DNA of 64,000 nucleotides from Psammoneis japonica (lineage: Eukaryota), in the NCBI GenBank assembly GCA_008632985.1, contig QPGO01000302.1:1-64000 (forward strand), read 5' to 3'. Shown here in pieces: positions 7,946 to 52,470 of this stretch. The position numbers and the translations under genes were made by a program. The notes beneath the pieces were generated by a model. That model did no database searches, was not told the origin of the DNA, and saw only the letters and a program-made list of their open reading frames with translations. Every line of letters starts with the position of its first letter. Positions within the stretch are counted from its first letter, which is position 1.

Positions 7946-8022
7946 AGCAATCAGCAAGACATAAAAATAAATGCCGATAGCTACAATAGCAGCGCGCTCA
8001 CGGGATGATGCTGAAAACATAG

Positions 8023-15960: not shown

Positions 15961-16002
<42 letters not shown>

Positions 16003-28869: not shown

Positions 28870-29444
28870 TGTTGGACGAAAGCTTTTCATCCCGTTGGAG
28901 TATGACCATCGCTGTAGCGGTTCCCACCACCACTCGCCAAAGTCTTCTCTTAGAGAGCAGGGCTCTGCCATTGCGCATCTCAGTCTCCGCCATCTCCCCA
29001 CTCCCTCAGTGCCTCACCATCGACCATCGCTTCGTTCCCGGAACACTCTCTTGTTTTGTGTTTTGTGAATGTTTTGCCATGTTTTGCGATAAAATTTTTG
29101 CTTGACGGTCGATGCATGGACGGCCGGGACGTTACAAGTCCGTCCGCGTCCCGTCCGTCGCGCGTGCTCTTTGACGCGAGATCGCGCATGGACAGAAAAT
29201 GGAAAAAAGTGGACAGAAAAAAATTTCTGTCCATTTCCGTTGGGCACGATCGCGCATGGACAGAGTTTCTGTTGCCATGCTGACAACAAGCCACTTTGCA
29301 ACTTTTCTCCTTTCTATTGGGATGTCTTGAGGAGCAACATGACAAAACACAGCAAGCACGACTGCCAGGGTTCAATGGTTGGGAATGCTCGTTGTTCTTG
29401 TTTTGAGTGGCTGCACCTCTTTCACACCTCTTGTGTGCGCAGGT
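28870..29444. mobile_element. Left part of an older TpA-depleted element interrupted by the Copia, with clustered short repeats
   Basis: GATCGCGCATGGACAGA at 29180 and 29248; TGGACAGAAA...TTTCTGTCCA hairpin at 29210-29233; sequence resumes after the Copia TSD at 35911. Confidence 0.5.
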
Positions 29445-30094
29445 TGACAGGATTTGAACAAGATTTTAGTTTGTCACACGTGATCATGTGTGCTCTTGGT
29501 TCCGCGCACATCGTGCGATGCAGCTTGCTTTCGAGCCACCGGCGCTCACAAGAGCAATGACAGCAGACGGGTTCCAGCCCCGGGTGGGGCTCCGTGTGAC
29601 ATTGGGCCCGCAGAATTCTGCGTGCGAGCTTCGTGGCAAATTTGTGCTGCAATGAAAATGCAAATGATCGCCAACAGAAAAAGAGGCAATTTTACGAATG
29701 CATCTCCTCCTCCATGCTTGAAGCACATCATTTTGACAGTTTGCCCGGGTGTGCTCTTCAGACATTGAAGAACACACCCAGTGCATTTTCATTCTCACAA
29801 GTGTTGAAAACAGAAAGCCTTTGGCTTTGCAAAACAGGGAGCATGAAACAATTTCGTAGAATGCAACATGTGGAAATCTGCGTGCGCGACATGCGATGCG
29901 ATCCAAAAAACTGTTGATGTCACAGTGCAGCAGTGCGAGGCCCCACCTGGAGCTGGAACGTGCCAGCAGTGCCGACATCACGACGCCAGCCTTTCGGCTC
30001 CTGCGGCGGTCTCTGCATGGAGACTCATCTGCAGTTTAGACAGCAGCAAGGAGTTGTTGTTTTCTTCCACCCCAGTCATCTTCATTTTCTGTCA
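29445..30094 (+). repeat. 5' LTR (247 bp plus a MITE insertion)
   Basis: Colinear with 35664-35910 once 29567-29969 is removed. Confidence 0.93.
29567..29963. mobile_element. MITE copy 1 (~397 bp) inserted in the 5' LTR
   Basis: TIRs ACGGGTTCCAGCCCCGGGTGGGG / CCCCACCTGGAGCTGGAACGTGC; CAGCAG duplicated on both sides and single in the 3' LTR (empty site). Confidence 0.92.
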
Positions 30095-32405
30095 GATTGA
30101 CAGTCTCGCCAACAGCACCAGAATTTTGCTGAAAGCCGGGGACCCGAAGTGATCCATGACAGTGTTGGCCATGGTCTCCACAGTTTGGCAGCGGCATTCA
30201 GCAAAATTCTGATGCTGTTGGTGAGGCTCGCTTTGCCAACTAGAGATGAAGAGAGGGCGTGAAGGATGCCAAGAACCTTGTTGCTGATCTCAACTTGAGC
30301 ATGGTCGCTGATGAGCTTGGGCAGGGCACCGCGATTGTGAATGCTGTCTTCGAGGGTGTTGACAAATTCTTTGTCAGTTTTGGTGCCATGCACATCAGTG
30401 ACGAGAGATTCCATGCCAACAAAGAGCTGGGCGCTGGTGCAACCAGAGTCAACAGCAGGGGTGTCGGAGCACACCGTGTTGGTGGCAACGGGTTCATTGC
30501 GTTGGTGGACATTGAGAGCCGGGTTGGGTGACTTGCGCACCTTTTTCAGGTGCGTGCTGGCTGGCATGCAGGCACACTGCGTCATGCAGTCAAAAGTGCG
30601 GCAAACAGTGTCCTTTAGGAGAAAGCCAAAACAAGGGCGGAGGGACTCAAAGTCATGATCCTTGGGATTGAGTTCGTGCTCATGGCGTGCGTAGAAGAAA
30701 TCAGATGTTGGGAGCAGGTGATCATCAAGGACGGAGTCTGCTGCATGGCATTGTTGAAGACATGGCAGTGATGACAGTTGCCGAACTCATCAAAGAGGTT
30801 GGAAGTCGGGTCATCCTGGAGGTTAGACACAGCATCACACCATGTCTCATCATCGGCGAACTGGTGGTCAAGGACAGATGGATCCCATGTGTCATCACCA
30901 GCGAGAATGACATGCGGCAGAGTGTCCCATTCGGCGTCAGTGTGTGGGCGTGTGGCGATGCATGGAAGGCCGGCTTCAATGTTGATGGGAATGACGCATC
31001 CATCAACAGTGGTGATGCGCTGCAGACCATTGGGGACCTTGACGACCAATCATTGACATCATGTTTGCACCACTCAAGCTGGCCACAAGAGTGCATCGTC
31101 TTCCCCTTTCCAGTGTGGGCATGCTGGTGAAGGATGGCAATGGCAGGGCTGCGTTGCGTGTGGATGACACCACCGGCAGTGACAACAGGAATGTCGACTG
31201 GTTGATGATCGTCGACACCTTGGACGTCAACCTGGCAACCAGTGCGGGCAATGACACAAACATCATCACCTGCGACACCACCGTTTGCACCATGATCCAC
31301 AAGAGCACCTTTGTGAGTTGACTTGTGGGTTGAGGCAGAGCAGACAACATTGTGGTTGTTGACGCGATGGCATTTATGACCGTTAAGCTCAATGTCAGTG
31401 TTGGCAGTGCAGAAGGACACAGATCCATTGGATTTCTCGTCGGAGTGGACAGAAGGTGTAGATCGGGGGGTTTCTCACCAGAGCGGGCGGAGGGGGGGGG
31501 GGGGGGGTGTTCAGGTGCCAGGAGGCATTGCAAGTTGCTGGGTGGTGAAGGCTTGCACCGTGTGAGATGGGCCAGGATGGGGTTGGCATCAGCCGTGTTG
31601 GTGGCAGCATCAGATGGTGTGAGTTCTGATGCAAGATCATGGGTGTTGGCGGACAAGTTGATGTCGCCATCACTGCCAAGATGGAGGTTGTGCAGGTTGA
31701 CCATCGTCAAGTCATGGCAGTTGCCGGTGTGGGCATTGCACGAGCCAAGGATGACAGCCTTGGTGGAATGGGGCAAGGTGTCCCAAATGCACTGATGGTC
31801 CAGCGGAATGCAACGCCATTGTTCCCTGGTGAGGGAGTTGCCGTGGGTCTGTGCAGCACAAGCTTGGATGACGTCAACATCGCTGTTGATGTTGAAGAAC
31901 ACATCATCGTCAGGGTCGTCGGGGGCCAGGTCATGTTCGCAGATGGCACGGCACGGAGCATGAGGAGCCATCTTGGGGGTGAATGTGCTGTTGCACTGTG
32001 CTGTGGCAGAAAGCAGGAGTCCACAGCACTCTTCACAAGAGAGGCCCTTTCCATTCTGCGTGCGGAACTGATCGGCCTGATTCTTCACTGAACAGAGTTC
32101 TTTGACAGGGTGAATGGCGTTCTCAAGCATGACACATTTCTGGCCAGCAGAGAAATGGTCCACACCCGGGACAAGAGCTTCACACTTGTGGAGCTGGTCC
32201 TGCCAGTGAAGTGCGAAGGCATGGGTGGATCCTTTCCAGGTGCCATCACCGAGGCGAACAGTGGTGAGGTGCGTGAGAAGGGTCGAGGACTCCAGGGATG
32301 CACGAGCAGAAGCAAGGGTGCACTTGGAGAGGTCACGACAACCACTTGAGCATCAGAGGAGCCGACATGTTGACAAACAAGTGCCTTGCCTTTGTCATTC
32401 TGCAA
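30095..32405 (-). pseudogene. Inverted gag-protease-integrase segment of the Copia
   Basis: Minus-strand QNDKGKALV..DAQ (gag), LVDHGANGGVAGDDV (protease), RNEPVATNTVCSDTPAVDSG...KLISD (integrase), while LTRs and RT are on the + strand. Confidence 0.88.
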
Positions 32406-32409
32406 GATC

Positions 32410-35400
32410 CGTTCGAGTGCAGCTGAGCCGCTGCCAAACTGTGAAGACCATGGCCAACACTGTCATGGATTGCTTTGGGTCCCCGGCTTGCACCTGGCTG
32501 CTCGCCCTGATGTGCGTGTGCTTTCTGCTCAACCACATGGCGTCTGCCAAGCTCCACTGGCGTGCCCCCCACCGAGGTGCCATCCGGCTCTGCTCCCAAC
32601 ATCAGCCCGCTCCTCCGCTTTCAATGGTGGGAGCCCGTGTGCTGCCACCTGGATGATTCTGACTGGCCGTCTGAGTCCCGTGAATCACGCGGTCACTTTG
32701 TTGGCATCACTGAACACGTTGGTCACCAAATGACATTCAAGATTCTTTCTGATGACACTCAGAAGATTCTCTGCCGTTCCAACGTGCACTCCGCCCGTGA
32801 TCCGTCTGCTCCAAACCTGCATCTTGATCCTCCTGACAAGAAATCTGCTGAACCTGTCATTAAATCCCGCCATGACTCCAAGGATTTGCCAGATTCACCA
32901 GATGGGGAGGCAATCAGGATGCCCAAAATGCCGGTCTTTGACCCCAAGGACATCATCGGATGCACCTTCCTCATGAAGCCACAAGAGGATGGACAACGCC
33001 ACAGAGCCCGCATCGTCAAAGCCGTTGAGGACCATGACTGGAAAATTGGAGACAATCCTGAACTGGTCAAGTTCATTTGCTCCGTCAACAATGACGAATG
33101 CGAGGAAGTCCCAGCCTGCAACGACATCATGCACCACATTGAGCAAGGACGAGGACACCACCCTCTGGAAGTTCCAAAGCATCGCATCGCATGAAGGACC
33201 ATTGCGACCCCATGATCCCTCTTGGAAAGGCTCAAGCTGCAACGTCATGCTTGAATGGGAGAATGGGGAGATCACGTCCGAACCCCTTGCCATCATTGCC
33301 AAGGATGACCCTGTCACCTGTGCCATCCATGCGCGTGAGGACGGCCTTCTAGAAACCGAAGGATGGAGACGTTTTTGCAAGACAGCCCTCCGTCAGAAGA
33401 AGCTGTTCCGCATGGCCAACCAAGCCAAGTCACGCTCCTTTTGCACTGCTCCACGACACAAGTGCGGGTGTGAAGTGCCGCAGGACTGCAAGCATGCCAT
33501 GGCCCTTGATGAGCGTAACGGCAACCGCAAGTGGGGGGACGCAACGGACCTTGAGATGACTCAGCTTGGTGAGTGCGAGGTCTTCCACGACTGCGGACAC
33601 TACAAGGATTCCAGTGCTCCATCAGGACACAAGAAGATCCAGGTGCATCAGACGCTGCGACATCAAACATGACAGATGGCACAAAGCAAGGCTTGTTGCC
33701 AATGGACACCTCACAGACGTGCCCATCGACAGTGTCCATTCCGGAGTGGCATCTCTCTGTGGCCTGCGAACGACGATCTTCCTGACCGAACTCAGTGAAC
33801 TGGTGACCCATGCAGAAACAGGGAACAAGTGCTTAAACCACAGAGACAGAGATTTTCTGTGTGTGTAAAAATTGTGAGATTGTTTTAGTTAGAGTGCAAA
33901 TGCGTGATGGTGTCTTTTTCCAAGAAACAAGAATTCTTGTTGTGTGACAAGTCATTGGAAAGACTCAATCACAAGTCTTTTGTAACACTCATTGACACTC
34001 ATGCGGAGCCAATTTGCAGGCTCATGCTTGGTGCTGCACACATCCTGCGCAGACCCTTCGTGCGAGGTGAGTCATTTGCGCGATGGCCAGTCGCGCCGGT
34101 CTCAGTCGCATGGGTCACTCCTGCAGCCTGTTGCAGGTCTCGCACTGGGAGTCGTGTTTTCTGCAACACGCTTCTGCGGGATCAGCGTCGCTGCAGACAG
34201 CCTGCAGATGCAGGAAAGTGGCATCATTGGCGGCCATGGCAGGGATGCCCACTGCATTGAGTTAGAGACCTGGGCCACTGACATTCGGAATGCCTGTCTC
34301 GAAGCTGCGACCAAGGAGAAACTGCACATTGCAGCAGGCCCCGAGTTCAGCAAGCTGGAGGGACACATCCTTGTCATCCACAAGGCCTTGTGCGGACTCC
34401 ACAGCTCTGGCCTCAGATGGCATGAATGCTTTGCCAATTGCTTGCATGCTGAAGGCTTCTTCCCATGCAAAGCCGAACCCGACATCTGGCTGCGCAGGAA
34501 TGGTGACCACTGCAAATGCGTGGCAGTGCATGTGGACGACCTGGCCTTTGCCATGAAGGACCCCCAGGCTTTTGCAGACACCCTCATGGAGAAATGCAAG
34601 TTCAAACTCAAGGGCACCAGACCGTTGGAGTTCCATCTTGGTTGCGACTTCACCCGTGACCCAGACGGCACCCTGTGCCTTGCTCCCCACAAGTGCATTG
34701 AGTGCATGGTTGACAACTGCGCACACCTCTTTGGGGAGAAGCCCCGCACTGATGTGCTTTCACCCCTTGACAAAGGTGACCACCCTGAGCTCGACACCTC
34801 CGAGTTACTCAAACCGGAGGGCATCCACCAATTCCAATCCTTGATTGGATCCCTGCAATGGGCCGCATCTCTGGGTTGCATTGACGCCACTGCAGCTGTC
34901 ATGTCCCTGTCTGGCTTCCATGCAGCGCCCCGCCAAGGCCACCTGGACCATGCCAAACGCATCTGCGGATTCCTCTCCAAGATGCATCATGGTGCCCTCC
35001 AAGTGTGCACCAAGGAGCCCGACCATTCGGACCTCCCTAAACCCGTGCATGACTGGGCTCAATCTGTGTGTGGGGAGGTAGAAGAGCTGCTCCCGCAAGA
35101 TGCACCCGAGCCACTTGGCAAGTTCGTCACCGCCACACACTGCGTTGATGCGAACTTGTTCCATTGCATGCTCACTGGATGCTCTGTCACCGGCATCCTC
35201 CATTTCCCAACAAGTTTCGGCTGATTGGTTCTCTAAGAAACAAGCAACAGTTGAGACTGCTGCACATGGATCCGAGTTTGTTGCTGCAAGGACATGCGTT
35301 GAGCAGATCATTGACCTGCGCATCACTTTGCAACACCTTGGCATCCCCATTTGTTAAAAATTGCCTCATGTTTGGGGACAACAAGTTGGTTGTGGACAGT

Positions 35401-35660
35401 GCTGCCATCCCTCACTCCAAGTTACACAAGTGACACACCGCCCTCTCATTCCACCGTGTGCGTGAGGCGATTGCCTCCGGTGGCCTCAAGTTTCATTTCA
35501 TCGAAGGCTCCCACAACCCAGCTGACATCCTCAGCAAGCATTGGGGTTGCTCCCAAGTCTGGAGCCTCCTTCATCCTCCAATGTTTTGGAACTTTGATCC
35601 TGAGGCTTTCAACCAATCTGACCTTGAATCTGTCGCTGTTGACCCCTCAAGCAAACTGGG
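32410..35660 (+). pseudogene. Copia integrase C-terminus, RT and RNase H pseudogene
   Basis: PNISPLLRFQWWEPV, EWENGEITSEPL, HKARLVANGH, TDIRNACLEA, KALCGLHSSG, VAVHVDDL, WFSKKQATVETAAHGSEF, NPADILSKHW; frameshifts and stops. Confidence 0.93.
33800..34257. mobile_element. ~450-bp non-coding insertion interrupting the Copia RT
   Basis: RT reading IFLTELSEL stops at ~33803 and resumes as ELETWATD at ~34259; weakly inverted ends; exact termini uncertain. Confidence 0.65.
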
Positions 35661-35663
35661 GAG

Positions 35664-35910
35664 TGACAGGATTTGAACAAGATTTTTGTTCATCACACAC
35701 AATCATGTGTGCTCTTAGTTCCGTGCACATCACGCGATGCAGTTTGCTTTCGAGCCACCAGCTCACAAGAATGATGACAGCAGTGCCGACATCATGACAC
35801 CAGTCTTTTGGCTCCTGTGGCGGTCTCTGCACGGAGACTCATCTGCTGTTTAGACAGCAGCAAGGAGTTGTTGTTTTTTCTTCCACCCCTGTCATCTTCA
35901 TTTTCTGTCA
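35664..35910 (+). repeat. 3' LTR
   Basis: TGACAG...CTGTCA, preceded by the PPT and followed by the TSD. Confidence 0.95.
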
Positions 35911-36310
35911 CAGGTCATCCTGCAGCCAACAATGAAGTGTGGCATTGAAAAGATTGCAGCAACATGTTGTGCCATGGCCCTGGCGCATCAAACAAAACAA
36001 AGCGAGGTTGTGCAATGCTCATCCTCAACATGGGGCAGAAATGACAGCATGGCCTTTCACTGTCCACCCTCACTGCGGCCCACAAATTGCATCAGACAAA
36101 ATTGACTCCCTTTAGATTCCCACAAGCAGTGCACCACCAATCCAAAGGAAGTGCACACAGGGAGTGTCAAACAATTTTTGAAGCAAGTTGGGAAGATTGG
36201 CAATCTTTTCTGGCCGCTTCTTGAGAAACAAACCCATTTGGCCAGGGTCAGGGCATGCTTGTCTGAGCAGGATTGACAACTGTTGCTCCTCTCTTCTCAA
36301 CTTGGATCTC

Positions 36311-36546
36311 GCACATCATTTTTTACTTGGCCAGGTGTGCTCTTCAGACATTGAAGAATGCACCCAGTGCACTTGTGTTCTTGCAATTTTGTCAAATGAA
36401 GTGTCTGGGGTTTCACAAAACAATGAGCATGGAATTTCTTTTGGAAGACCACACGTAGAAATGTGCACCCGAAACACATGACGGATGACAAAAAAATGAT
36501 TGTCATGTGTCAGCACTGTGAGCTCCCACCCAGGGCTGGAGCGTGT
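36311..36546. mobile_element. MITE copy 3, right half only
   Basis: CACATCATTTTTTACTTGGCCAG...CTTCAGACATTGAAGAA...GAGCTCCCACCCAGGGCTGGAGCGTGT aligns with copies 1 and 2. Confidence 0.85.
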
Positions 36547-37537
36547 TGCCAACCGCACATTGTCTCAGCCGTCTGGGTGTCTGAACATCTGGGCATGCCA
36601 TCACAGGCATGACACCAGGCACCTCCACCTGGCCAGACCAAAAGCTGTTCCTGACCCTGGAACACATGCCCCCATTGTTCACAGGGGCACCTGCAACGGC
36701 CTCTGCCCAGAACCTTGTCTGCTGCACAGACAGCAGCAAGGTGTTGTGCACTGGGTCCAGGCTGGAGCTCTGCTTGTGGTGTCCACCTGATGTCACCAAC
36801 ACTTGAGTGATGGAAACAGAGCAAGGATGACTGGCTCTTGTTCAAACTCTGTCAGGTTGACAGTCTTGATGACCCTCATCAATGCAACAAGCTCTCATTG
36901 AGCAACAAGAACATCCCAAGGACACAAGTGCACAAGTGGTGGCTGGGGTCAATTCTTTGGTCCATTTGACAGCAACCCCAGAAGCCACTCAAGAGAAATG
37001 GAAGAGCAACATTTGCAGTGTCAGGTTGGTGGGGAGTGAGGACAAAAATCAAAGAAGAGCTGGATTTTGGCAGCCAACCTTCAAAATGAACAAGGAAACA
37101 GTGAATGGCAATGGCGATAAATTGGCAGCACAAATGCCAACAGATCACTGCATTCCTCAGTCAGGGAATGGAAATCTGTCAGTGACAACAGCAAATTCTG
37201 GCACGAATTCCAAAGCGGGCTTGGGCTCAAGTCTTGCCAACCATGTGTCTCAGTCATCTGGGTGTCCAAACATCTGAGCATGCTGTCACAGGCATGAGAC
37301 CAGGCACCTCCACCTGGCCAGACCAAGAACTGCTCCTGACCCTGGAGTGCATGTCCCTGTCATTCATGGGGGCACCTGCAATGGTCTCTGCATGGAGACT
37401 TGTTTGCCACGCAGACAGCAGCAAGGTGCTGCACTGGGTCTGGGCCAGAGCTCTGCTTGCTGTGTCCACCTGATGTCATCAATGCTTGAATGATGGAGAC
37501 AGAGCAAGGATGACTGGCTCTTGCTCAAATTCTGTCA
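36547..37537 (+). mobile_element. Pair of ~305-bp LTR-like direct repeats (36547-36854, 37235-37537) with a 380-bp spacer
   Basis: Both start TGCCAACC and end CTGTCA; they share the (GGTCTCTGCATGGAGACT)...GACAGCAGCAAGG core with the Copia LTR; the first is followed by GGTTGACAGTCT, like GATTGACAGTCT after the Copia 5' LTR. Confidence 0.8.
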
Positions 37538-37799
37538 TGTCCTTCCCATGCACCCCCCCCCCCCCCCATGACTGTGGTGCAGCACACACAACGGCGTGCA
37601 ATTGTGAATGTGCAAACTTCTTTTTGTGTGACAATGCATGTTGTGCTTGCCTCCCCAGCTGCATGTTGAAGTCATTTGTCAAATGGCATGACATGACAGA
37701 TGTTCATGGCATCAACAACATTGCCATGTTTGATTTGCTCTGTGCAGCTGGTGGTGCGCACAGTTGTTGTTGTTTCATGTGGCCCAACACAGGGCTGCT

Positions 37800-40700
37800 C
37801 TAATTTTTTTTACAGTCTTTCTCAAGCAACTTTTTTTTCACTCTGCATGTGCACAGAGTGTGTGGAGTGTTCTCTTGAGCACTGTTCTCATTTGCAATCT
37901 CTTGTGTTTGTTTCTGGACAAACTTCCAGCCAGTGATGTTTCAAGTGTCAACCTTGTGTCTCTGATGAAGACAAGTTGTCCTGGCGCAGCTTGCACAGCA
38001 GTGCAATGTGCAGAATGCCCCACAAAAGCTGCTGCTGACAGCACTCCATCAAATGGACTCTCTGCATTCAGAGGTGCATTTTGTGAATCAAATGTGTGCA
38101 GCACATTGCAGGGCACTTGATGCATGTGCTCTGTCACAGTGTTTGCCTGTGGATTTTGTGTGGCTGTGGGCTTGAATTTAGTGCCGCAGTTATCTTGAAC
38201 CACAACCTGGAGTTGCTGTCTGCAGAAGTGTGTGTGAGATCGCTGAGGCCACATGTCTTGATGGCAGTTGATCACACTGATGAAACATCAAAGTTCTTTT
38301 TGAGTTGCAGGAGCTGCAGCTGCTTGGGTTGCCTCTACTTTCTTGGGCATTGGTCTGGCACCATTGTGTGAGATGCAAAAGCCCAGAGAGTCTGCTTTGG
38401 GCTTGGCAAAGAAGGACATTTTGGTGTTGACCTTTTGGCTGGCTTGATCCAGTCGCACAAGAGCTGCTTCAAACTTCTTTAGATGACATGAGAAGTCACC
38501 CTCAGCAAGGCACAGTGTGTCATCAAGAACACAGGCTCAGGCTCTGACAAACTCCAGACCTGCCATGAGCTCAGCACTCATGTGTTCTTGAAAATTGCCT
38601 GGAGCTCCACAAATTCCAATGGGGAGTTTGCAGCATTCACACTTCTTGCCCCATGGCATCATGATCTTGCACAAGCACCAAGCATGTGGCATCAGCTTGA
38701 TGTGACAGTGTCCCATGCTTAAATCTCAAATTGAGCAATGCTGCACACATCAAAAACTTCCAGCTTCTGTGGCACATCCTAAATCTTGGGCAAGGGATTC
38801 AGAGCACACATTGCCTGCTTGCTCAGCTCACAAAAGTTGGGCAGGAACCAAGCTTGACCGTTTGTCTCATGTTGAATGAGAAAGGCTGGAGCTGCCTGCT
38901 CAGAATGACTCATTTTTCTTGGGACTCCCATCTCACAGTGTCATTTGACTTCCTTTGAAGTGGCCCACGCCAAGGCTTGTGGAGCAGGAAATGGCTTCAC
39001 ATCATGTGAGATTGTTCCCAACTTCAATGTGAGGCCTGCTGATTTCCCAGTTCATTTGCCCAGAGAGCCATCAAAAAGATTCTCAAAACTTTTTAAGAGG
39101 AAGTTCAGTTGCTTCTGCTCCTCTGGGGCCAGATGCATTGCTGCAGCAGCTGCCTCATTGAGGTCAGCAACATGACAGTCAGAGCCCACGATCCTGTCAA
39201 TCCTGTCATTGAGGCCATTCATGGTGCAAGACTCTTCAATGTGATTGGCAATCAGCTTGAACACTTTGGGATCAAGAAGTGCATCAATGTTTTTCTCTGG
39301 GGCAGCCACATTTTCCCACTTGACATCTTTGCTCACAAAGTCCAGTGTGGCTCCAAGACTGCTCATCAGATTGCATCCCATGATCACATCATGTTGACTT
39401 GCAGAAGCAGCAGTGTCCTTGTCAACATGTGCTGTCTTCTCAACAAGCCCATGCTGTCAGCCACAAAGAGCCCACCTCTTTGGCACCCCAAAGCTCAGCT
39501 GCAGATTCCTTGGTTCTCTCCATTTCCATGTGAATTTGTGCAAAATCATGGTTGACAATGTTCTGCTGTCAAGGTGGATGTGCAGGAGGCTTGTTTTTGG
39601 CTTTCCCCAAGGAGGCATTCTCACAAGCAATGACTGCTGGACTTGCATGTGTTGCTTTTGCCTTTTTCTCAGGCTTTCTGACATCCAGCAATGTGCCTGA
39701 CTCCTTGACAGGTGCCAGTCATTCCTCAGAATTGTCATGAGTCATTTTTTCAATTTGACAGTTGTCCTGACCAAGGGTGTCAGAGTCTGAATCTTTGGCT
39801 TGATGTTTCTTGTCCTTTGCCAGGGAGCTCATCTTGAGGGTTTTCTGAATTGCTTGAGCAACCACAGTTCTCATCTCTTCTTTTTGAGAGACATTTTTTG
39901 CATCACCATGAGACTGCATGCAATTGCCATTTGAATGTTGCCTTTTTGGCTCTCATTCAAAGTTCTCACAGTGTTCCTTTGCCAGTCTTTTAACAACCCA
40001 GCACTTGCACACACATCATGAGTGGTCTTTTTGCAACAGCTGGACCACCAATTGGACTCAGAACATTTGGCGCCAGATTGGCAGCCATTTTTGGGATCAT
40101 GATGGGATTGGTCTTTGGCTTTGAACCCAGGCTTGTTGCCAGCATCACCCTTGACATGAATCTGGTCAAATGTGTCCTCTCTGCAACCTCCAGACACTCC
40201 AAAAACTCTGCCAGCTTGTAAAAGGTGTGATTGAGAATTTCGAGACCTTGAAGAGTGGGCTGACAGCAAAGCTCAGATTCTGGTTTGACTTGAAGGGAGG
40301 ATGGCACTTGAAGTCTTCACTCACTTCTTGGGCCCAAGCTTCAATTTGGCAGATCTTCACAGAGTCTGGCTTCTTCAGATTGCTTTGCAGACAGCACCCC
40401 TGACTTTGGAATGCATTCTTTGGGAGCGTGCAATCACAGAGGTGATGTGGGCAGTTTTTGAAGGCTCCATCATCATCTTTGGAGTCAACATTCCCCACCT
40501 CATTCTCAAAAACTTTGAGAGCATCTCCCTGCAACAATGCACGCACCTTGCAAAACTTGTCAGCCTGCTCTTGGATGTTTTGTCCAAGAGCTGGGACCTT
40601 CTTGCAGTTCTTGAGGAATTCAATGTGCTTGGGAGCTCCCTGCTTGTTGCAGCACTTGGCATCAACAGCCATGTGCAGGTCTTCTTGTCTCCGGGATGAA

Positions 40701-41300
40701 AGCACTGCTCCATTTTGAGGCACTGACTTGGTTTTTGAGTGTTTTTGGCTCAGAAATCAATTCCAGCAGCACAGGTGCAATTTTTCCCTGCTTGGTGGAA
40801 GACTTGATGCTGGCTGCATGAGATGAAAGCTTCTTTTTTTTTGTTTTTGCCTTCTGTGGTGTGTGTGCACAGGGCGCTGTGCTCAAAGAATGAGTGCAAA
40901 ACAAATGAAGGTGTTTTTGGCTCAGGAATCAATTCCAGCAGCACAGGTGCAATTTTTTCCTGCTTGGTGAAAGACTTGATGCTGGCTGCATGAGATGAAA
41001 GCTTCATTTTTGTGTTTTTGCCTTCTGTGGTGTGTGCGCACACTGCGCTGTGCTCAAAGAATGAGTGCAAAACAAATGAAGGCAGAGTGAATTGCAAAAA
41101 GTGGAAAATCACAAGATTGAATTTTGTTCTGTGATTTTGGGTTTCTCCGAAAGAGCCCCAATGTCCTGGAATGTTCTTTGCACTGCTTCTTCAGACAAAA
41201 AGCCTTGCAGAGAATCTGGTTGTGACAACAATCTGGTTGTGACAATGTTTGGATTGTCTCGGTGCATGACTGATGTTGACAACTTGTGTGCATCAACATT
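37800..41300 (-). mobile_element. Ty3/Gypsy retrotransposon remnant (gag-protease-RT-integrase, deleted and degenerate)
   Basis: Integrase KPTATQNPQAN..EHMHQV...QAAPGQLVF (37.9-38.2 kb); RT LSMGHCHIKL...PWGK.CECCKLPIG (38.55-38.75 kb); protease MIMGCNLMSSLG (39.4 kb); gag-like LLQGDAL (40.5 kb); Gypsy domain order. Confidence 0.85.
40739..41082. repeat. Tandem duplication, two ~172-bp units
   Basis: GTGTTTTTGGCTCAG...GCAAAACAAATGAAG starts at 40739 and again at 40911. Confidence 0.92.
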
Positions 41301-41499
41301 GCCTGTTGATTTAATTTGCATTTTGAGCATTCAATCAGAGGATCTCAGCAGCCAGTCTGACCTTCTTGCAAGAACTTCTTGCACATCCGCAATTGTGGTG
41401 CAATTGACATGTGTGGCAATGCACAGTTTTGAGTGTGCTTGTTTCTTTCTGTGGAGCAATGCATGTTGCAAGCAAAAGCCCTGATCTGCAATCTTCCCA

Positions 41500-44400
41500 A
41501 ACTCTCTGACTGCAAAACACTGGCAGCAGGGCCATGCAGAGGGCCTCTGCCAGGGGCCACCTTTTTCCATCTCATGCAATGCACAAAAATTGTGCACCAC
41601 CAGCCAAAGCCTTCCATGACAATGTCAAGCAATTTTTTGTGCCAACACACTTTCCTGCAGCACGGCACCTGTTGGCACTGACCACAATGACTTTGGCCCA
41701 TCAGGCAACATCATTTCTGGTGCCTGCCATTGAGTGTGTGCTGTTGCTGGTGTTGCACCACAGCAACTCATGTCATTTTTCAGCACACCTGCAGTGGCTG
41801 TCACAGGTGCTGTCCCCAGCAACAATGCCATTGATGCTGATGCTGCTGTTGTTGCAAAAACCATTGCTCTCAGCTGCACCACAGGCATGGCAGGTGATGC
41901 CATTGCTGTGGCAATCAAGTCCAAAATGCACCCAAGCCAAAGTGCTGAAAATTTTGCACTTTTCTTTCTCGTGCTCTGTTGCCTGTTGCCCCCCACAGGT
42001 GCTGTGACAAGTGCCAATGCTGTCAATGAAGTTGACAATGCTGCAACACCATTGCTGTCAATCACAACAGCCCTGACATGGCAGGTGGTGCCATTCACAT
42101 GGCTGTTGATTGGGTTGCTGTCTCTGGTGCAAGCCTGCACTTGCTCTCACTGTGTGATGATGTGGTTGGATTTGTCACTTCAAAAGGACAACAACAAAAA
42201 CAAGAGCAGCAGTGCTGCAGCTTGTGCATTTCTGCTCAAATGAGCCCCTGCACTTTTGCTGCATGCAGCAAGAACCCATTGTGAGCATTGGGCCTTGCAA
42301 AAACTCTTGACTTGGCACACAAGCATGGGCCAAAGACAGAAGGTGGTGGCCTTTCAAAAGGCATTGCCAAAATGACAGGACAGTCTTCAAGGTTGTTCTT
42401 TGACCAGCACCATTGCCAGAAGAGAGTGTGGTTGATGTTTCTTTTGAAGAAAAACATCTGCGTGTGCATTGACGCTGTGAAGTCCTGTTGCCAAATGTGT
42501 GTTGCTGGCTGCCACCTGGTTGCCAATCCTTGTGCACAAACATGGCTTCCATCTTTCCAAAGTTGGGGCATGTGGCCAGCTCAAAAACACTCATGACATG
42601 GCATGTGGTTTCTTTTGCTTTCAGGGATGCAGCTCAATCATGAGCTGCCCCACCTTCCACATCTGCCTTGACATGGCCCATGCCACAGCCCCCATGACAG
42701 ACATGACAAAAGGCTTTTTCATCAATCTTGCTGTCTTGGGCCACCCATTGCTTGTGGACTTTGCCAATGCCACACGTGCACTTTTTTCCATGATGTCAAG
42801 TGACGCAACAACATGGCATCTTTTTAAAATCCCAAAAGCAAAGAATGGTGGGTAGAAACATCTGCCAAATGACTTTCATCTGCAAAAATCAAAAAACAGG
42901 TGTGAGTTGCCACTGACAAACACAGCAGCAGCATGGTCCAATGGGGTGAATGCATCAGGAGAATGGGCAGCGGTGTTGTTGGCTGCCAGTGGAAGGCATG
43001 GGGCCACAGATGGCAGTGGCATCAGCACTTGTGGGAGGAACTGCAGTGTGAGAAAAAAAGTGTGAGTTGGCATCATTTGACGGTCATTTTGCCATTGGAA
43101 AAAGGACAAAAATGTGTTGAATAACACCAGCTGCACCAAGGGCAGGAGAATCAGTGTCATGTGCACTGGTGGCAAGACACCCAGGGATGGCATTGCTGCA
43201 AGTGGCACTGCCTGAGGAAGGCAGTGGGGCATGAAGACAACAAAACCAAAACCCAATTTCTGTGTTCAAAGGTGCTGCTGTGCTTCTACCCTGCAGCTGA
43301 ACCTTGGTTTCATGAGCAGATGTTGCATTCTGATGAAGCTCATTGCAGCATGCAAGAAGTTTATGAGTCACAGAACAGCATTGGTTGGTGTCATCTGTTC
43401 AATGGCAGATTCCATTTTGTGGAGTGAAGCTCAATTGTGACACTTGGCAGACAGCGGGCATTGCAGCCATGAGGAAAAATGCAAACATTTGGGTTGGTGG
43501 TTGGCAATGACTTTGGCATGTGTTTTGTCTTGATGGTGGGAACTGTGAGATTCCCACAACAATGCAGCTCATGGTCATGACTCCCAAACTTGCAAGTCAT
43601 CTCAACACTGTGACACAGAAGCAGAAGTCAAGGCCATCTGCTCCAGAGTTGATGACCACCTGGAGCAAGGCAAAAGGCAGATTTGTTTGGCCTTGTTGAT
43701 GGACACTTGATGCACTTGACTCACCACGTGCACAATCAGCCAGCAAGCTGTGGTTTGTCCCACATTTAAGCCAAGCATCTGTGAGGTAAAAGGTTCATCT
43801 GCAAGAGGTGCTTGCACCATTGCACAAGTTGTTTTGGTGCCACACCACCACCTTCTGGTGGTGCTGATCCAGGCCAGTTGCCATGCACTCATCCTGTCGC
43901 ACTTTGTGCATGCTGGGAGTGTGGGTTGGCTTGTTGCCAGAGCTGCAGGTTGGAACAAGTGCAGCAGCACCTTTGAGTGCAGAGCTGGGGTTGTGTTTTT
44001 GTGAGTTGCTGGTGCAGTGCAGCAATTGATGTGGATCACATCAACTCTTGCATCTTTGGCGCATGCTTGGAGATGAGCCTCTCATCATCTCCTGTTGCAG
44101 TCAGTTGGGTTGCTGGAGCATTTGAGGATTCAGAAGTTGGGCCTGCAACCAATCTTGTTCTGGTCATGATCCTGGTGCCAGCAGCACTCTCTTGCACTTG
44201 CACCCGGTGCAGGTTTGGGCAAAAAGTGTGAACAGTGTGCTTGGGTGTTCCACAACCATTGCATGCACACTTTTTCTTTTCTTGCAATTTTGGCACTTTG
44301 CAGTTGCCCACAAGTTTAAACACCATGGTGCAGAAGGTGGCACATGCTCTCAACCCCCATCTTGCTCTGTCTGATGTTTGAAGCAACCAAGATCAAGCAG

Positions 44401-45250
44401 CCATGTTGGACTGGTTGCCTTGTGCTGGCCTGGCTGGGTTGGATGCTTGAAAGATCAAGTCTGGAAAGGCCAGATGCACCAGCATTTGGCCCTCCTTTCT
44501 GTCAGACTTTTTTCCTGCTCAGTGACCCAGTGCAGGATTGTTCCTCTCCCCATTGTCTGAGGCCCCTGTCAGATTGTCATCCAAGGTTGGTGAGCCACTT
44601 TGTCAAAGTCAGGAATTTGCTTTCCTTGTTGCATCATCAGCAGCTGACAGGGAGGGTGGTGAATGACTGGCGCACTTCTATCAACAAGTGTGGTTGCTCC
44701 AACAGTTGTCATTGGGGCCATTTGAATGTGCCAAGTTTCCCATTGGCTCAAGTTCATGCCTGCACTGATGGCCAAGAAAGCACTGTGTTCTCCAACAAGG
44801 ACAAGCAGGTGGCAGCACCCCCCGCTGGGATCACCGCCAGCTTGTTGTGTGCTTCATTGTTTTCCACAATCAATGCTTGTGGTTTCTTGCTCTCTTGTTC
44901 ATGGCAGTGGCAGCCACCACAAAGATTTTTGCACACACACCCAGAAAAAGCTCTCATTTTGCCAACTTGTTGTCACCACCCATGCACCACAGGTTGACCT
45001 TGGTGGCTGGACTTGCACACTCTTCTTTTCTGTGCTTGCAGATGAGCCTGCTTCTTTGCAGGTGCTTCAGGCACTCCTTGATGGGCCAACAAGTGGCCTT
45101 GCCAAGCCAAGCAACCAAGCTTGCACAGCTTTTGTTGGTTGGGGAAACTGTCTGGCACGCACATGTGAGGAGCACATGTGCAACGTCACCTGGTGGCACA
45201 GGAGAAGGGACAGATGCAGAGCAGGGATGGAGCTGAGTCATGTGGGCAGG
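41500..45250. mobile_element. Highly degenerate TpA- and CpG-depleted repeat sequence, class not recognised
   Basis: TG/CA-saturated composition, continuous with the flanking TE remnants. Confidence 0.5.
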
Positions 45251-45700
45251 GTGTGGGGTGGGATTGGGGTTGGGGTCAGCAAGCTGGGGCTGCAGTTTGG
45301 TGGAGCGACAGGTGAGTTGGTCAGCAAGCAATTTGGTTGTTGTTGCAAAGCTGGGGCTTTTTGGAGGCCCCGTGGTGATGGAGTTGAGGTGTGGTGGGTC
45401 AAGCCGAATCATGATGAAGCAGCAGATGTGGACCGTTGTGCACAGGTGCATGCAACATGGGTGGCGGGGTGTTGGAAGGAGGATTCGGCATTCCAGGGAG
45501 GTGGTGGTGGGGCAGGGACGGGGCATTGTTGATCAGCTCCGAAAAGGAGGTGGTGTGCGAAGCAGCCGGGGGCTCCGAAGTGATCGATGGCAAAAGGGAT
45601 GAGGCAGATGCCAGCGTTGTTGAGGGTGGATGTGAGGGTGGTGTTGTGTTGGGTTTCGTGTGTTCCGTTGAACTTCCGTTTGGTGCTCGCATGGTGTGCC
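45250..45700 (-). mobile_element. Possible C-terminal restriction-like endonuclease region of an RLE (CRE-like) non-LTR retrotransposon
   Basis: KRKFNG...LIPFAIDHFGAPGCFAHHLLFG resembles the K..K(Y)...FxPxxxExxGxxG tail of RLE domains; motif resemblance only. Confidence 0.45.
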
Positions 45701-45934
45701 TCGGTGTACCGTGCCGTAAGGGCTGAGAGTGGGGGCTTTGTTTTTTCCGCCTGCCCTGTTTGCGCGCGAAAATGTTCGCAGCCGCACGACGAGCGACGCG
45801 CTCGAGCACCGTGAACAACACGGGGCATCCAACAACCGAAGCACAAGCTGGAAGCACAAGAAGACCTTACTGTATTTGAGCCGCCGGTCTTCCTTTGGCT
45901 GTGAGAGAGACCCTAGAGAGAGAGAAAGAAGAAC

Positions 45935-50049: not shown

Positions 50050-52470
50050 TGTACGGCGCGAAAATGCACGCAGACGCGCAAGATTGCCAACGTCTTATGT
50101 GTGATGGGCTACTGTGCTTCAAAGGAACGTTGGGATCGTGCGTGGCGTGCGCATCGCACTGTGGTTGCGGTTGAGAATCCCCATGGGATTCCCGGCCACC
50201 GCCTCAGCGGATCAGCACCTCGATGACGTGCAACAGTGATCCACAGCACTGGATCTAAGGTGTGTGATAAACAGCAGTAGTTGCACCGTAGAAGCAGCAG
50301 CTGACAGGAACCCGGACATGCGAGTCTGAAGGTCTGTGCAGCAATGCAGCCTGGACAAAATGGAGGACATCCGGCACTGTGCCGAGAACAAACGTCACTT
50401 CACCCATTCCACCAGGCGGAGGAGCAACATACCCCGCAACCAACCCCCAGTGCTGGGCATGCTCAGCAGCAACCTCGAGACGCTCCTCTTCCTTCCGAGT
50501 GGGGGGGGCGGGGTGCCGCGGCGATCCCTTGACACAACGCCACAAGTTGGTCGTTCGTCATGCCGCCATTGTTGCCAACACCGCCAACTGCCAACAGACG
50601 ATCCGAGATGTCGAAACCATCAAAATCCGCAGCGTCATCCATCTTGCTCGCATCAAACAAAGGGCTGCCCTTCGTGACCGAGCGCTCGTCGTTGTTTGCT
50701 GCAATGCATTGCATGCCACGCTTCCATGCAGCTCCCAGTGGGAAATCCGCACCCAACTCCGGAGTGGGCTCATCCACAGGAATGCCACTGGGGAAAGTCT
50801 TGCCTGGTGGCAAAGGCAGGAACAGCTTCAGAACAGAGATCTGAGGGTGGTCTTCCGCAGCCGCAGGTGGAGGGAAATGCAGACGCCCCACAGGTGCAAC
50901 CCAGTCATCCTCCGGTGGAGTTGTTGGGCCGTCAACAGTGTCCGGCGCCTGATTGCGAAGTCATTGAAGCTTGAAAGGAGTTGAGAGCGACAGAGACTGG
51001 GGTGTGACTCCCAATCTCGTCCGACAAGCTCCCAATGACAGAGGTGGTCCCTTCCGTCGAAGCAAACACTTGAGGGCGGGTGAGAATCATGATCCACTTT
51101 GAGCAAACAAAGGCAAACTGGGTTGCTTTCATTGGATTGGATGTGACAGTGTGGCGAACCTCATGGTTCACACCCGGTCGAAGCGTCGAAGCCAGTGCCA
51201 TTGCATTCTCGTCTGAGAACGGAAACGCTGTTGTGTGGTGCTGGTCAGCAGCACCACGACCCTGCTGGACAGCAGCGGCGGAAGGAGCAAACACAGTCAT
51301 TGAACAATGACTTCACAGACTCAGTGTAAATGGCTGACTTCGGAAATTGTGAGGAGCCACTCCCATGGGTTCCGGCCGTGAACTCTGCAGGTGGAGCATC
51401 CTGTCCACAACTTTGTGGTGTTTGATTCAGATTTTCAAAATTTTCAATGGCTGCAAACAATGTGAACCGTGAACCCTGCATGACGGTTGCTCTCAAGCAG
51501 GCACCACTGGGGCTTGGAGGACCCATCATGCTCCGTGCCTGCATCGAAACATTCGTGGCTCGGACAGACATGTTGTGTGGTCGAGCGCTGAGCATGCAGG
51601 ACCAGCAGTTGAACAACCAGCAAGAAACAGAGATGCCATTCTCAAGAGGCACACACACATGAACATGTTCACAATCCCACACTCGACGCGTTCCAGATGC
51701 AGGTGGGAATCCGTGTGACATTGGGCCCGCAGACTTCTGCGTGCGAGCTCCGCAGTAAAATCACACGGTGATTAAAATGTCAATGATCGCCAACAGAAAA
51801 TGAGGCAATTTTGCGAATGCACAAACTCGCACATGATTGAAGTACATCATTTTTTACTTGGCCAGTTACATTCTTCAGACATTGAAGAATGTAACTGGCG
51901 CATCATTGTTTCTATAAATTTGTCACACAAAACGTCTGGGGAACAGCGAGTCTGGACAATTTTTTTAAAATGTCACACGTAGAAATCTACGTGCAAAACA
52001 TACGACGGATGATAAAAATCATTGTTGTCACACGTCAGCACTGCGAGCTCCCACCTGGGGCTGGAACGCGTCACTCGCACCAGCGAGGGGGTCAACCATG
52101 GCCGACAGCATGCGGCCATTTCCCGCCGGCGAGGGTGTGACCCACACACGCCGAGCGGTTGTCAAGAAAGTGGCTTTTGGTTGCATAGAGGAGACCATCC
52201 TCTCAGTGTCAGGCATTGCCGCATTGGCACAGTAAAAAAGAGGGGGATGGAGACAACGACTGTTCATGAGTCGGTTCCGGAATCCCAGTCAAATTGCTCT
52301 GTCATGAGCGCAGAATTTGATGGAGTGAACATGTGGGACACCTGTGTCACTCCCCGATCCTTAGCAATCATCAACAGAGTGTTAATTTTGCAATGAGACA
52401 TGGTCGCTGCAGTGGACCATGGTTGCACCCCTCTGATGCTGACTGCCAAGGGAACAATGCGTGGATTGGT
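50050..52470. mobile_element. TpA-depleted, CpG-retaining repeat island with a decayed - strand ORF; class unknown
   Basis: Very few TA outside the nested MITE; stacked pseudo-ORFs; lies between normal genes. Confidence 0.55.
51686..52071. mobile_element. MITE copy 2 (386 bp), the least mutated copy
   Basis: Perfect terminal ACGCGTTCCAG / CTGGAACGCGT; CACTCG duplicated at 51680-51685 and 52072-52077. Confidence 0.95.

What the first reader, a model, noticed from the sequence alone, without database searches (positions are those of the whole stretch)
28870..45700. Candidate repeat-targeted TpA->TpG/CpA (A:T->G:C) hypermutation system, an inverse of RIP
Seen: across ~17 kb of nested Copia, Gypsy, MITE and unclassified repeats, TA is almost absent. 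By eye there are roughly 25-30 TAs in 36-45.5 kb, where several hundred are expected, and TG/CA are saturating. Flanking genes have ordinary TA content. The same signature recurs in four other islands and is independent of element class. Established: fungal RIP and 5mC deamination cause C:G->T:A, and RIP creates TpA; neither removes it. Inference: this lineage has a genome-defence or heterochromatin-linked mutator converting A to G (or T to C) at TpA in repeats, e.g. DNA adenine deamination or a mutagenic A/T modification. I know of no description of this in diatoms, but I cannot search the literature.
Basis: partly seen in the sequence, partly recalled or inferred. Interest (0 to 1): 0.95.

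Follow-up and report, generated by a model that had tools for sequence, protein, structure and literature searches.

The report
TpA-erasing hypermutation of diatom transposons
In this diatom genome piece, dead transposon DNA has had almost every TA step rewritten to TG or CA while neighbouring genes are untouched, a mutational genome-defence signature so far reported only in a 2026 preprint on an unrelated alga.

Summary
In 28870-45706 there are 60 TA, against 1015 +/- 25 in shuffles and about 675 at the density of the flanks. TG and CA are at 1.7-1.8 times expectation and CG is also low. Four smaller islands show the same pattern.

The loss is a polarised mutation. In a rearranged Copia element, 0 of 39 conserved Tyr codons survive: 23 are TGY and 10 are CAY. 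Other residues, Arg aside (23 of 54), are kept at 549 of 635. Intact relatives have normal TA content. Repeat copies inside the window differ by CA/TG doublets, so at least some hits came after duplication. Contigs from a public run reproduce the TA-free sequence.

TA loss runs ahead of CpG loss. The island edges are sharp where they could be read.

However, only Copia was confirmed among the claimed element classes, and targeting looks regional rather than purely repeat-dependent.

The same TpA-only A:T>G:C hypermutation was reported in 2026 in Bigelowiella natans. The named homologues of two window proteins are all diatom, so this is a new member of that kind. The enzyme is unknown; adenine deamination is my leading guess.

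The parts
28870..45706 (.). Main TA-depleted island (TA obs/exp 0.03-0.13 by block; CG obs/exp 0.86 at the left end falling to 0.08-0.14 on the right)
29445..30094 (+). LTR-like repeat, left copy. It is interrupted by a 395-bp insert (29566-29960) that is itself a dispersed repeat.
   Evidence: matches 35664-35910; the insert matches 51685-52068 and 36311-36545
30110..32423 (-). Copia polyprotein remnant, about residues 215-1000 of full-length relatives, inverted relative to the rest of the element
   Evidence: tblastn
32429..35610 (+). Copia polyprotein remnant, about residues 943-1850. RVT_2 lies at about 34277-34672. All conserved Tyr codons are converted to TGY or CAY.
35664..35910 (+). 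LTR-like repeat, right copy
35911..45706 (.). Unclassified TA-free and CG-poor DNA with no protein-family hit. 35.9-41.1 kb shows raised summed contig depth. 41053-43940 is covered by one unbranched 2887-bp contig at depth 63.
36543..37540 (+). Direct repeat pair (36543-36857 and 37231-37540, 82.6% identical). Eleven CA/TG doublets account for 22 of its 48 mismatches.
6281..7960 (.). Second island. It holds non-colinear Copia fragments (7057-7957, minus strand), also Tyr-free, and a single N at 7737. The first cluster of TAs begins at 7962, 5 bp past the last Copia match.
15214..16440 (.). Third island, unclassified (TA obs/exp 0.04, CG 0.27)
50431..51756 (.). Fourth island, unclassified (1 TA in 1326 bp while CG obs/exp is still 0.69)
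63438..64000 (.). Fifth island, cut by the window end (TA obs/exp 0.03, CG 0.62)
51685..52075 (+). Copy of the 390-bp dispersed repeat. Its first ~70 bp overlap the end of island four and the rest lies outside. It keeps TA where the two island copies (29566-29965, 36150-36550) have TG or CA.

Best explanation
The islands are silenced transposon DNA in a diatom genome. They have been subjected to a TpA-specific A:T>G:C hypermutation process. It acted after these copies diverged from functional elements and, at least in part, after duplications within this locus.

How it works, as far as the data go: at each palindromic TpA, the A of one strand or the other is converted to G. The plus strand then reads TG or CA. 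The site is no longer TpA, so it is immune to a second hit, which is why CG is not produced. Ordinary CpG>TpG/CpA decay, expected from the CpG methylation of diatom transposons, runs in parallel but more slowly. Both processes converge on TG/CA.

Shown: the loss is real, it is polarised, it is specific to TpA, and there is one change per site. At least some hits followed duplication. It is confined to the islands, with sharp edges where they could be read, and it outruns CpG loss.

Inferred: the hits are enzymatic. The most likely route is deamination of adenine to hypoxanthine, which is read as G, by an ADAT/TadA-type deaminase recruited to silenced chromatin. I put about 0.4 on that enzyme class. 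The process would serve as a genome defence of the same kind as that reported in Bigelowiella natans.
For: (1) Depletion: 60 TA against 1015 +/- 25 in shuffles; 3.56 TA per kb in the island against 40.1 in the flanks.

(2) Polarity: of 39 Tyr columns conserved in at least 80% of 63 full-length relatives, 0 are Tyr in the window, 23 are Cys (TGY) and 10 are His (CAY). All other residues except Arg are kept at 549 of 635. Arg is kept at 23 of 54, with 12 Cys, 9 His and 5 Gln. The second Copia locus at 7.0-7.96 kb shows the same: 12 Tyr columns, 0 kept, 6 TG and 4 CA.

(3) Relatives are normal: all 120 listed homologues have 2.3-5.3% Tyr. DNA of three related loci has TA obs/exp 0.72-0.85 and CG 0.97-1.14. 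Of 215 TA in relative L001 that align to the window, 2 remain TA, 73 are CA, 50 are TG and only 10 are CG. The other 14 dinucleotides are kept at 32-57%.

(4) After duplication: in 10 intra-window repeat pairs, CA/TG doublets make up 40 of 66 adjacent double transitions, where 29 of all classes are expected under independence. In a three-copy repeat, the copy that lies almost wholly outside the island has TA where the island copies have TG or CA, at two sites with different outcomes.

(5) Speed: blocks with CG obs/exp of 0.62-0.86 already have TA obs/exp of 0.02-0.13. In the Copia element, 19 CGN Arg codons survive but no TAY codon does.

(6) Not an assembly error: contigs of run X1 at depth about 60 match 37.5-45.3 kb with 0-4 other letters per 0.5-2.9 kb.

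(7) Precedent: de novo mutations that fall only at TpA, all A>G or T>C, at about 1000-fold rate in silent integrated viral DNA of B. natans (I read Results and Discussion). ADAT-type Tad2/Tad3 editing in fungi has 96.7% of edited A preceded by T (passages read).
Against: - No genome is held. I could not run a genome-wide test, look for a deaminase gene, or see chromatin or methylation data.
- The library type of run X1 is not on record. I infer accurate short reads from the uniform word depth; this is not shown.
- Only one element class (Copia) was identified.
- At 10 Tyr sites shared by the two Copia loci, 8 have the same outcome and 2 differ. Part of the mutation may predate their separation, or the outcome may be set by sequence context.
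- Surviving TAs are concentrated at TTAA and CTAA/TTAG. This does not match the favoured fungal Tad2/Tad3 motif TTAGGA.
- Nothing here separates adenine deamination from thymine oxidation. Both change the same base pair.
Confidence: 0.72

Rival explanations
1. The mutational process is the same, but the chemistry acts on thymine. A TET/JBP-type dioxygenase would oxidise T at TpA in silenced repeats to 5-hydroxymethyl- or 5-formyl-uracil. That base mispairs with G, giving T>C. The same enzyme class acting on 5mC might also contribute to CpG loss.
For: It yields the same base-pair change and the same outer-neighbour context, so every sequence result above fits equally well. In dinoflagellates a TET/JBP homologue makes 5hmU, and 5hmU is enriched in repeats (abstract and passages of PMC11572971). 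Early work on Crypthecodinium reported 5hmU preferentially in TA and TC contexts, as quoted in PMC11071213.
Against: The TA preference was not recovered in Breviolum. Mispairing of oxidised thymine is, from my recall, partial, so near-complete conversion would need many generations. No diatom thymine hydroxylase was examined here. TC is not depleted in the islands (TC obs/exp 0.95).
Confidence: 0.15
2. Editing happens outside the chromosome. Transposon RNA or cDNA is hyper-edited A>G during retrotransposition, as with ADAR- or APOBEC-type restriction, and already-mutated copies then integrate.
For: The confirmed elements are LTR retrotransposons. Two separate Copia loci share the outcome at 8 of 10 Tyr sites. 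Many related contigs, differing mostly by transitions (798 against 120), exist in run X1.
Against: Both strands are hit: at Tyr columns conserved in at least 60% of homologues, 31 are TG and 14 are CA on the sense strand. About 10 kb with no retro-element signature, including a unique 2.9-kb contig, is equally TA-free. Duplicated segments in place differ by CA/TG doublets. In B. natans the mutations arise in situ in integrated DNA.
Confidence: 0.07
3. Sequencing or assembly artefact: a modified base at TpA in repeat DNA is misread, so the TAs are really there.
For: The window spans 64 kb across repeats and contains a single N at 7737. The library of run X1 is not on record.
Against: Run X1 contigs at uniform depth of about 60 reproduce the TA-free sequence, yet differ from the window at scattered sites. 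They are therefore not a copy of it. Only one strand is changed at each palindromic site: CG is seen at 10 of 215 aligned TA positions. Symmetric misreading of a modified base would give CG. Homologous sites in different copies read TG in one and CA in another.
Confidence: 0.04
4. Passive causes: ordinary mutation bias, selection against TA, or an ancestrally TA-poor element family.
For: TA is mildly under-represented in the flanks, with obs/exp between 0.45 and 0.77 in most 1-kb bins.
Against: A functional polyprotein cannot lack Tyr, and all 120 listed relatives have 2.3-5.3% Tyr. TA loss is complete while CpG is only partly lost. The transitions from island to flank are abrupt where they could be read.
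Confidence: 0.02

Closest known systems
TpA-restricted A:T>G:C hypermutation of integrated viral and other foreign DNA in Bigelowiella natans (bioRxiv 10.64898/2026.01.13.699255; abstract, Results and Discussion read)
   Same: The dinucleotide and polarity are identical (TpA>TpG/CpA). It is local to silent foreign DNA next to normally mutating genes. It does not depend on copy number: their NCLDV region is single copy, and here a unique 2.9-kb contig lies inside the island. The long-term signature is the same, low TpA with high CpA+TpG in clusters. Their TpA-poor CDS are enriched in reverse-transcriptase and DDE domains.
   Different: The host is a diatom (stramenopile), not a chlorarachniophyte. 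The confirmed targets here are LTR retrotransposons. Depletion is near saturation (obs/exp 0.02-0.13), whereas their NCLDV region has rho 0.45. CpG is co-depleted here, which their text does not mention. Real-time mutation was measured there but not here. Their supplementary tables were not open to me.
Repeat-induced point mutation (RIP) of fungi
   Same: Functional analogy: dense transitions that destroy transposon reading frames, confined to particular DNA, with sharp edges and strong dinucleotide context.
   Different: RIP is C:G>T:A, mostly at CpA, and it creates TpA (abstract of PMC2621366 in the listing). Here the change is A:T>G:C and removes TpA. Dependence on duplication is not shown here and looks unlikely.
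5-methylcytosine deamination at CpG in methylated transposons
   Same: It explains the CG>TG/CA component: CG obs/exp is 0.08-0.86, and Arg CGN codons have become TGN or CAN. LTR retrotransposons of Phaeodactylum are methylated, in a CpG context according to preliminary data (passages of PMC2806351).
   Different: It cannot remove TA. TA loss here is faster and more complete than CG loss.
ADAT (Tad2/Tad3) A-to-I mRNA editing in filamentous ascomycetes (PMC13431901, passages read)
   Same: A>G change with a strong requirement for T before the edited A: 96.7% in N. crassa, and P(TA) is 22-233 times that of the other contexts.
   Different: The substrate there is RNA hairpins, and the change is not inherited. 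The favoured wider motif TTAGGA contrasts with the relative resistance of TTAA and TTAG sites here.
5-hydroxymethyluracil in dinoflagellate repeats (PMC11572971, PMC11071213; passages read)
   Same: An enzymatic modification of the T:A pair that is enriched in repeats and linked to transposon silencing, with an old report of TA context.
   Different: It is a modification, not a fixed mutation. No TpA depletion is described in the passages I read, and the TA preference was not reproduced in Breviolum.

Membership tests
TpA-directed A:T>G:C hypermutation of foreign DNA (B. natans type) | Changes fall on TpA and not on other A/T contexts | tested here: met
   Aligned TA is kept at 2 of 215, while AA, AT and TT are kept at 32-46%, like the other dinucleotides. 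Tyr is kept at 0 of 39, against 549 of 635 for residues other than Tyr and Arg.
TpA-directed A:T>G:C hypermutation of foreign DNA (B. natans type) | Polarity is A>G / T>C, giving TpG or CpA depending on the strand | tested here: met
   Tyr to Cys (TGY) 23 and to His (CAY) 10. TA in a relative aligns to CA 73 and TG 50 in the window.
TpA-directed A:T>G:C hypermutation of foreign DNA (B. natans type) | Confined to foreign or mobile, silent DNA beside normally evolving genes | tested here: inconclusive
   Confinement to five islands beside genes is met. Two islands contain Copia; the other three are unclassified. Transcriptional silence could not be tested.
TpA-directed A:T>G:C hypermutation of foreign DNA (B. 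natans type) | Independent of copy number | tested here: inconclusive
   One unbranched 2887-bp contig at depth 63 covers TA-free 41053-43940. The tool warns that depth is not copy number. One repeat copy lying almost wholly outside an island is unmutated.
TpA-directed A:T>G:C hypermutation of foreign DNA (B. natans type) | De novo hits at about 1000-fold elevated rate in real time | not testable with these tools
   This needs mutation-accumulation lines or pedigrees. The only hint is that, among the 40 of 928 differences shown between window and X1 contigs, two sites (38370, 43122) and one doublet (38877-8) in the low-copy part of the island involve TA or TG/CA.
TpA-directed A:T>G:C hypermutation of foreign DNA (B. 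natans type) | ADAT2-like candidate deaminase present in the genome | not testable with these tools
   No genome is held. None is encoded in the window.
Fungal RIP | C:G>T:A transitions that raise TpA and lower CpA/TpG | tested here: not met
   TpA is almost absent and CpA/TpG are at 1.7-1.8 times expectation.
Fungal RIP | Acts on duplicated sequence only | tested here: inconclusive
   (see the copy-number row above)
CpG methylation-deamination decay | CG depleted with matching TG/CA gain | tested here: met
   CG obs/exp 0.34 overall and 0.08-0.14 in 37.6-45.7 kb. Aligned CG goes to TG 109 and CA 57, with 74 of 369 kept. This accounts for only part of the signature.
RNA-stage editing fixed by retrotransposition | Changes on the sense strand only, in retro-elements only | tested here: not met
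   At Tyr columns conserved in at least 60% of homologues, the sense strand shows 31 TG and 14 CA. Unclassified DNA is equally affected.

The most novel reading that the evidence does not exclude
TpA-directed adenine-to-guanine editing of chromosomal DNA is an old, chromatin-guided genome defence. It would be shared by at least two branches of the SAR supergroup, Rhizaria and stramenopiles. In diatoms it would be the main and fastest route by which transposons are killed, acting in place on any silenced DNA whatever its copy number and outrunning CpG decay. If a natural enzyme that edits A in duplex chromatin lies behind it, that enzyme would be new to biochemistry.
Probability: 0.4. Interest if true: 0.92.

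Novelty: new member of a known kind. Interest (0 to 1): 0.8.

Why it matters
Known mutational genome defences and the main decay route of methylated DNA all push C:G to T:A. Examples are RIP, APOBEC-type editing and 5mC deamination.

A process that removes TpA by A:T>G:C has been reported only once, in a 2026 preprint on one chlorarachniophyte. That report rests mainly on two integrated viruses.

Finding the same signature at near saturation in retrotransposon islands of a diatom would have four consequences:
- It would show that the process is not a curiosity of one species.
- It would point to a wider, possibly ancient, system.
- It would place the system in a group with genetic tools and large ecological weight.
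- It would give annotators a simple marker for silenced foreign DNA: TA-free, TG/CA-rich blocks with misleadingly long open frames.

It also bears on how diatom transposons are inactivated, and on whether nature has a DNA adenine editor.

Tried and rejected
- Whole-genome analysis: no genome is held.
I replaced it with scans of 41 ORFs of 110 aa or more and 85 ORFs of 70-109 aa. Only RVT_2 was found. Two sub-threshold hits (CSN7a_helixI, DUF6418) were dismissed as chance. The Gypsy and MITE claims could therefore not be confirmed, and 35.9-45.7 kb stays unclassified.
- Pfam is insensitive to this Copia lineage. Its gag-protease-integrase part gave no hit, although tblastn with relatives maps it.
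- Context rules from TA sites aligned to relative L001: rejected as unreliable. Synonymous T/C differences at third codon positions inflate apparent TA>CA. Only Tyr sites were used for polarity.
- Strand bias: at conserved Tyr columns TG exceeds CA (23:10 at the 80% cut-off:14 at the 60% cut-off), but the L001 set shows the reverse (50:73). No claim is made.
- Runs X2 and X3 gave no cover over most of the island. I draw no conclusion about expression or small RNAs.
- Atlas searches: ATP23 gave no taxon signal. The 800-aa neighbour gave only a 0.86 lead to a diatom-dominated HSP70-like cluster.
- tRNA scan of the whole window: none found. Tandem-repeat scan of 28000-46500: two trivial arrays.
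- Literature: eight of the nine searches found no description in diatoms. One search found the B. natans preprint.
- Metagenome scan with the mutated RT: only 3 loci from 2 contigs, all with normal TA. No second TA-free example was found outside the window.

Full report
**1. The observation**

In 28870-45700 there are 60 TA (obs/exp 0.06), 370 CG (0.34), 1919 TG (1.70) and 1797 CA (1.84).

Two hundred mononucleotide shuffles of 28870-45706 give 1015 +/- 25 TA, with a minimum of 953. The flanking DNA carries 40.1 TA per kb and the island 3.56. TA-free stretches reach 1513 and 1402 bp.

Four more islands show the same pattern: 6281-7960, 15214-16440, 50431-51756 and 63438-64000.

Most 1-kb bins of the flanks have TA obs/exp between 0.45 and 0.77, and CG near 1.0. 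They encode ordinary eukaryotic proteins: ATP23 peptidase, POP1, a CREG-like protein, Nup93, a CCCH zinc-finger protein, seipin, NAA35 and ERO1.

**2. What the DNA is**

Among 41 ORFs of 110 aa or more (33 of them in or touching the main island, 8 in the smaller islands), and 85 ORFs of 70-109 aa in the main island, the only credible Pfam hit is RVT_2, the Copia reverse transcriptase, in 33986-35221 (E 2e-12).

A homology search returned 963 relatives. Of the 120 listed, 63 are full-length polyproteins of 1800-1960 aa. Mapping four of them by tblastn shows one rearranged element:
- residues about 215-1000 lie on the minus strand at 32423-30110;
- residues about 943-1850 lie on the plus strand at 32429-35610;
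- LTR-like repeats flank these at 29445-30094 and 35664-35910.

Non-colinear Copia fragments also fill 7057-7957.

The region 35.9-45.7 kb has no recognisable protein remnant.

The host is a diatom. Every named homologue of the seipin and NAA35 genes comes from a diatom (Seminavis, Nitzschia, Fistulifera, Amphora, Odontella, Attheya, Chaetoceros, Ditylum, Mayamaea, Epithemia), at no more than 48% identity.

**3. Polarity**

A TA-free sequence cannot encode tyrosine, so conserved Tyr columns give the ancestral state.

Take the 39 columns where at least 80% of the 63 relatives have Tyr. The window has Tyr at none, Cys (TGY) at 23 and His (CAY) at 10.
- All residues other than Tyr and Arg are kept at 549 of 635.
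- Arg is kept at 23 of 54. Its replacements are Cys 12, His 9 and Gln 5, the expected products of CGN>TGN/CAN.

The second Copia locus behaves the same way: 12 Tyr columns, none kept, 6 TG and 4 CA.

Of 156 changed conserved residues, 45 are explained by one TA>TG/CA step and 46 by one CG>TG/CA step.

The relatives are normal. All 120 have 2.3-5.3% Tyr. DNA of three related loci from two metagenome contigs has TA obs/exp 0.72-0.85 and CG 0.97-1.14.

In a codon alignment with the closest of these (1587 codons), 215 TA in the relative correspond in the window to:
- TA at 2;
- CA at 73;
- TG at 50;
- CG at only 10.

CG is kept at 74 of 369, and the other 14 dinucleotides at 32-57%.

So the change is TA>TG or TA>CA, with one strand changed per site, and it is specific to TpA.

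**4. Timing and place**

Ten repeat pairs inside the window span 2037 aligned columns. They differ by 244 transitions and 124 transversions. Of 66 adjacent double transitions, 40 are CA against TG. The next classes are AC/GT with 14 and AT/GC with 6, and 29 of all classes are expected if changes were independent. A CA/TG doublet is what two independent hits on one ancestral TA or CG leave behind. In the pair 36543-36857 / 37231-37540 alone, 11 doublets make up 22 of 48 mismatches.

A 390-bp repeat occurs three times. Most of the copy at 51685-52075 lies just outside island four, and it keeps TA. The two copies inside the main island have TG or CA at those positions, and at two sites they differ from each other.

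Against full independence, the two Copia loci share the outcome at 8 of 10 comparable Tyr sites.

TA loss runs ahead of CpG loss. Blocks 28870-30100, 50431-51756 and 63438-64000 still have CG obs/exp of 0.62-0.86 but TA of 0.02-0.13.

The edges are sharp where they could be read:
- the last Copia match ends at 7957 and TAs resume at 7962;
- on the right of the main island, 1028 TA-free bases end at 45707, about 210 bp before the next gene's open frame.

The left edge, 28.87-29.47 kb, is more gradual, with 7 TAs in 600 bp.

**5. Is the sequence real?**

Three coded runs from one sample hold the locus. Their library type is not on record.

Contigs of run X1 at a word depth of about 60, the same as over the flanking genes, cover 37553-45340 in pieces of 0.5-2.9 kb with 0-4 other letters each. 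One of these is an unbranched 2887-bp contig over 41053-43940.

They are not a copy of the assembly. Among the 40 of 928 differences shown, those in the low-copy part of the island fall mostly on CG against TG/CA. Two sites involve TA against TG/CA, and one is a TG/CA doublet.

The 29.4-36 kb part attracts thousands of related contigs. Their differences from the window are 798 transitions and 120 transversions.

A misread modified base is also unlikely on internal grounds. Symmetric misreading of a palindromic TA would give CG, which is rare. Homologous sites also read TG in one copy and CA in another.

What remains open is that the read technology of X1 is inferred from its uniform depth, not documented.

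**6. Mechanism**

The data show a process that needs an intact TpA, changes the A:T pair next to it on either strand, stops after one hit, and is limited to particular chromosomal blocks.

Surviving TAs are not random. Relative to the density in the flanks, the survival rates are:
- TTAA 39%;
- CTAA/TTAG 23%;
- GTAA/TTAC 11%;
- ATAT and GTAC none.

An A on the outer side therefore appears to protect the site. The baseline is only the flank composition, so this is a lead rather than a measurement.

I favour enzymatic deamination of adenine to hypoxanthine by an ADAT/TadA-type enzyme, with about 0.4 confidence in that class. Such enzymes have an inherent need for U/T before the target A. In fungal Tad2/Tad3 mRNA editing, 96.7% of edited A follow T. 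The authors of the B. natans study propose an ADAT2 homologue.

Thymine oxidation by a TET/JBP enzyme would produce the same pattern. Its precedent is repeat-enriched 5hmU in dinoflagellates. Nothing here separates the two chemistries.

Editing at the RNA or cDNA stage is disfavoured for three reasons: both strands are hit, unclassified low-copy DNA is affected, and differences arose after duplication.

The CpG component is ordinary methylation-linked decay. Diatom LTR elements are methylated.

**7. Comparison with what is known**

RIP and 5mC deamination have the opposite polarity.

Nine literature searches were run. None found a description in diatoms. One search found a 2026 preprint on Bigelowiella natans, of which I read the abstract, Results and Discussion.

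That preprint reports the following:
- In mutation-accumulation lines, 231 of 302 new point mutations fell in two integrated viral regions.
- 230 of those 231 were A>G or T>C, and all of these fell on TpA.
- The rate was about 1000 times background.
- The genome holds 124 clusters of TpA-poor, CpA+TpG-rich windows.
- TpA-poor CDS are enriched in reverse-transcriptase and DDE domains.

The word 'diatom' does not occur in that text.

The window therefore shows the same kind of process in a second, distantly related lineage. Here it acts on retrotransposons, is close to saturation, and is combined with CpG decay.

**8. Verdict**

It is not supported in its details (the element classes and strict repeat targeting).
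- Novelty: a new member of a very recently described kind.
- Limits: one 64-kb window, no genome, no enzyme, and run metadata missing.

Noticed in passing
29445-35910: The Copia element is rearranged. Its 5' 2.3 kb (polyprotein residues about 215-1000) is inverted relative to the 3' part. A 73-bp inverted duplication (30130-30202 against 32422-32492, 90% identical) sits at the junction, covering residues about 943-970. Residues 1-214 were not found.
   Followed up: partly
29566-29960, 36311-36546, 51685-52075: A dispersed repeat of about 390 bp and unknown class occurs three times, at 71-72% identity. One copy is inserted in the left LTR-like repeat. The copy that lies almost wholly outside island four is the only one that keeps its TAs.
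   Followed up: partly
7737: The only N in the window sits exactly between two non-colinear Copia fragments inside island two. It may mark an assembly join or an ambiguous base.
   Followed up: no
28000-46500 (all six frames): TAA and TAG are nearly absent, so the islands carry many overlapping open frames of 110-450 aa on both strands: 59 stop-to-stop frames of 110 aa or more overlap 28.6-45.9 kb. Gene callers could mistake these for genes.
   Followed up: partly
45917-48316 (+): An 800-aa open frame begins about 210 bp beyond the island edge. It has no Pfam hit. Its only lead is a language-model match of 0.86 to a diatom-dominated HSP70-like cluster.
   Followed up: partly
27501-29000 and 45855-47000 versus 29000-45800: Run X2 contigs cover only the genic flanks. 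The tiny run X3 has 42-153-nt contigs only over the Copia element and its LTR-like ends (29991-30032, 33070-33147, 35425-35846). Library types are not on record, so I make no claim about expression or small RNAs.
   Followed up: no
40739-41082: Tandem duplication of a 172-bp unit, 94.8% identical, inside the unclassified part of the island.
   Followed up: no
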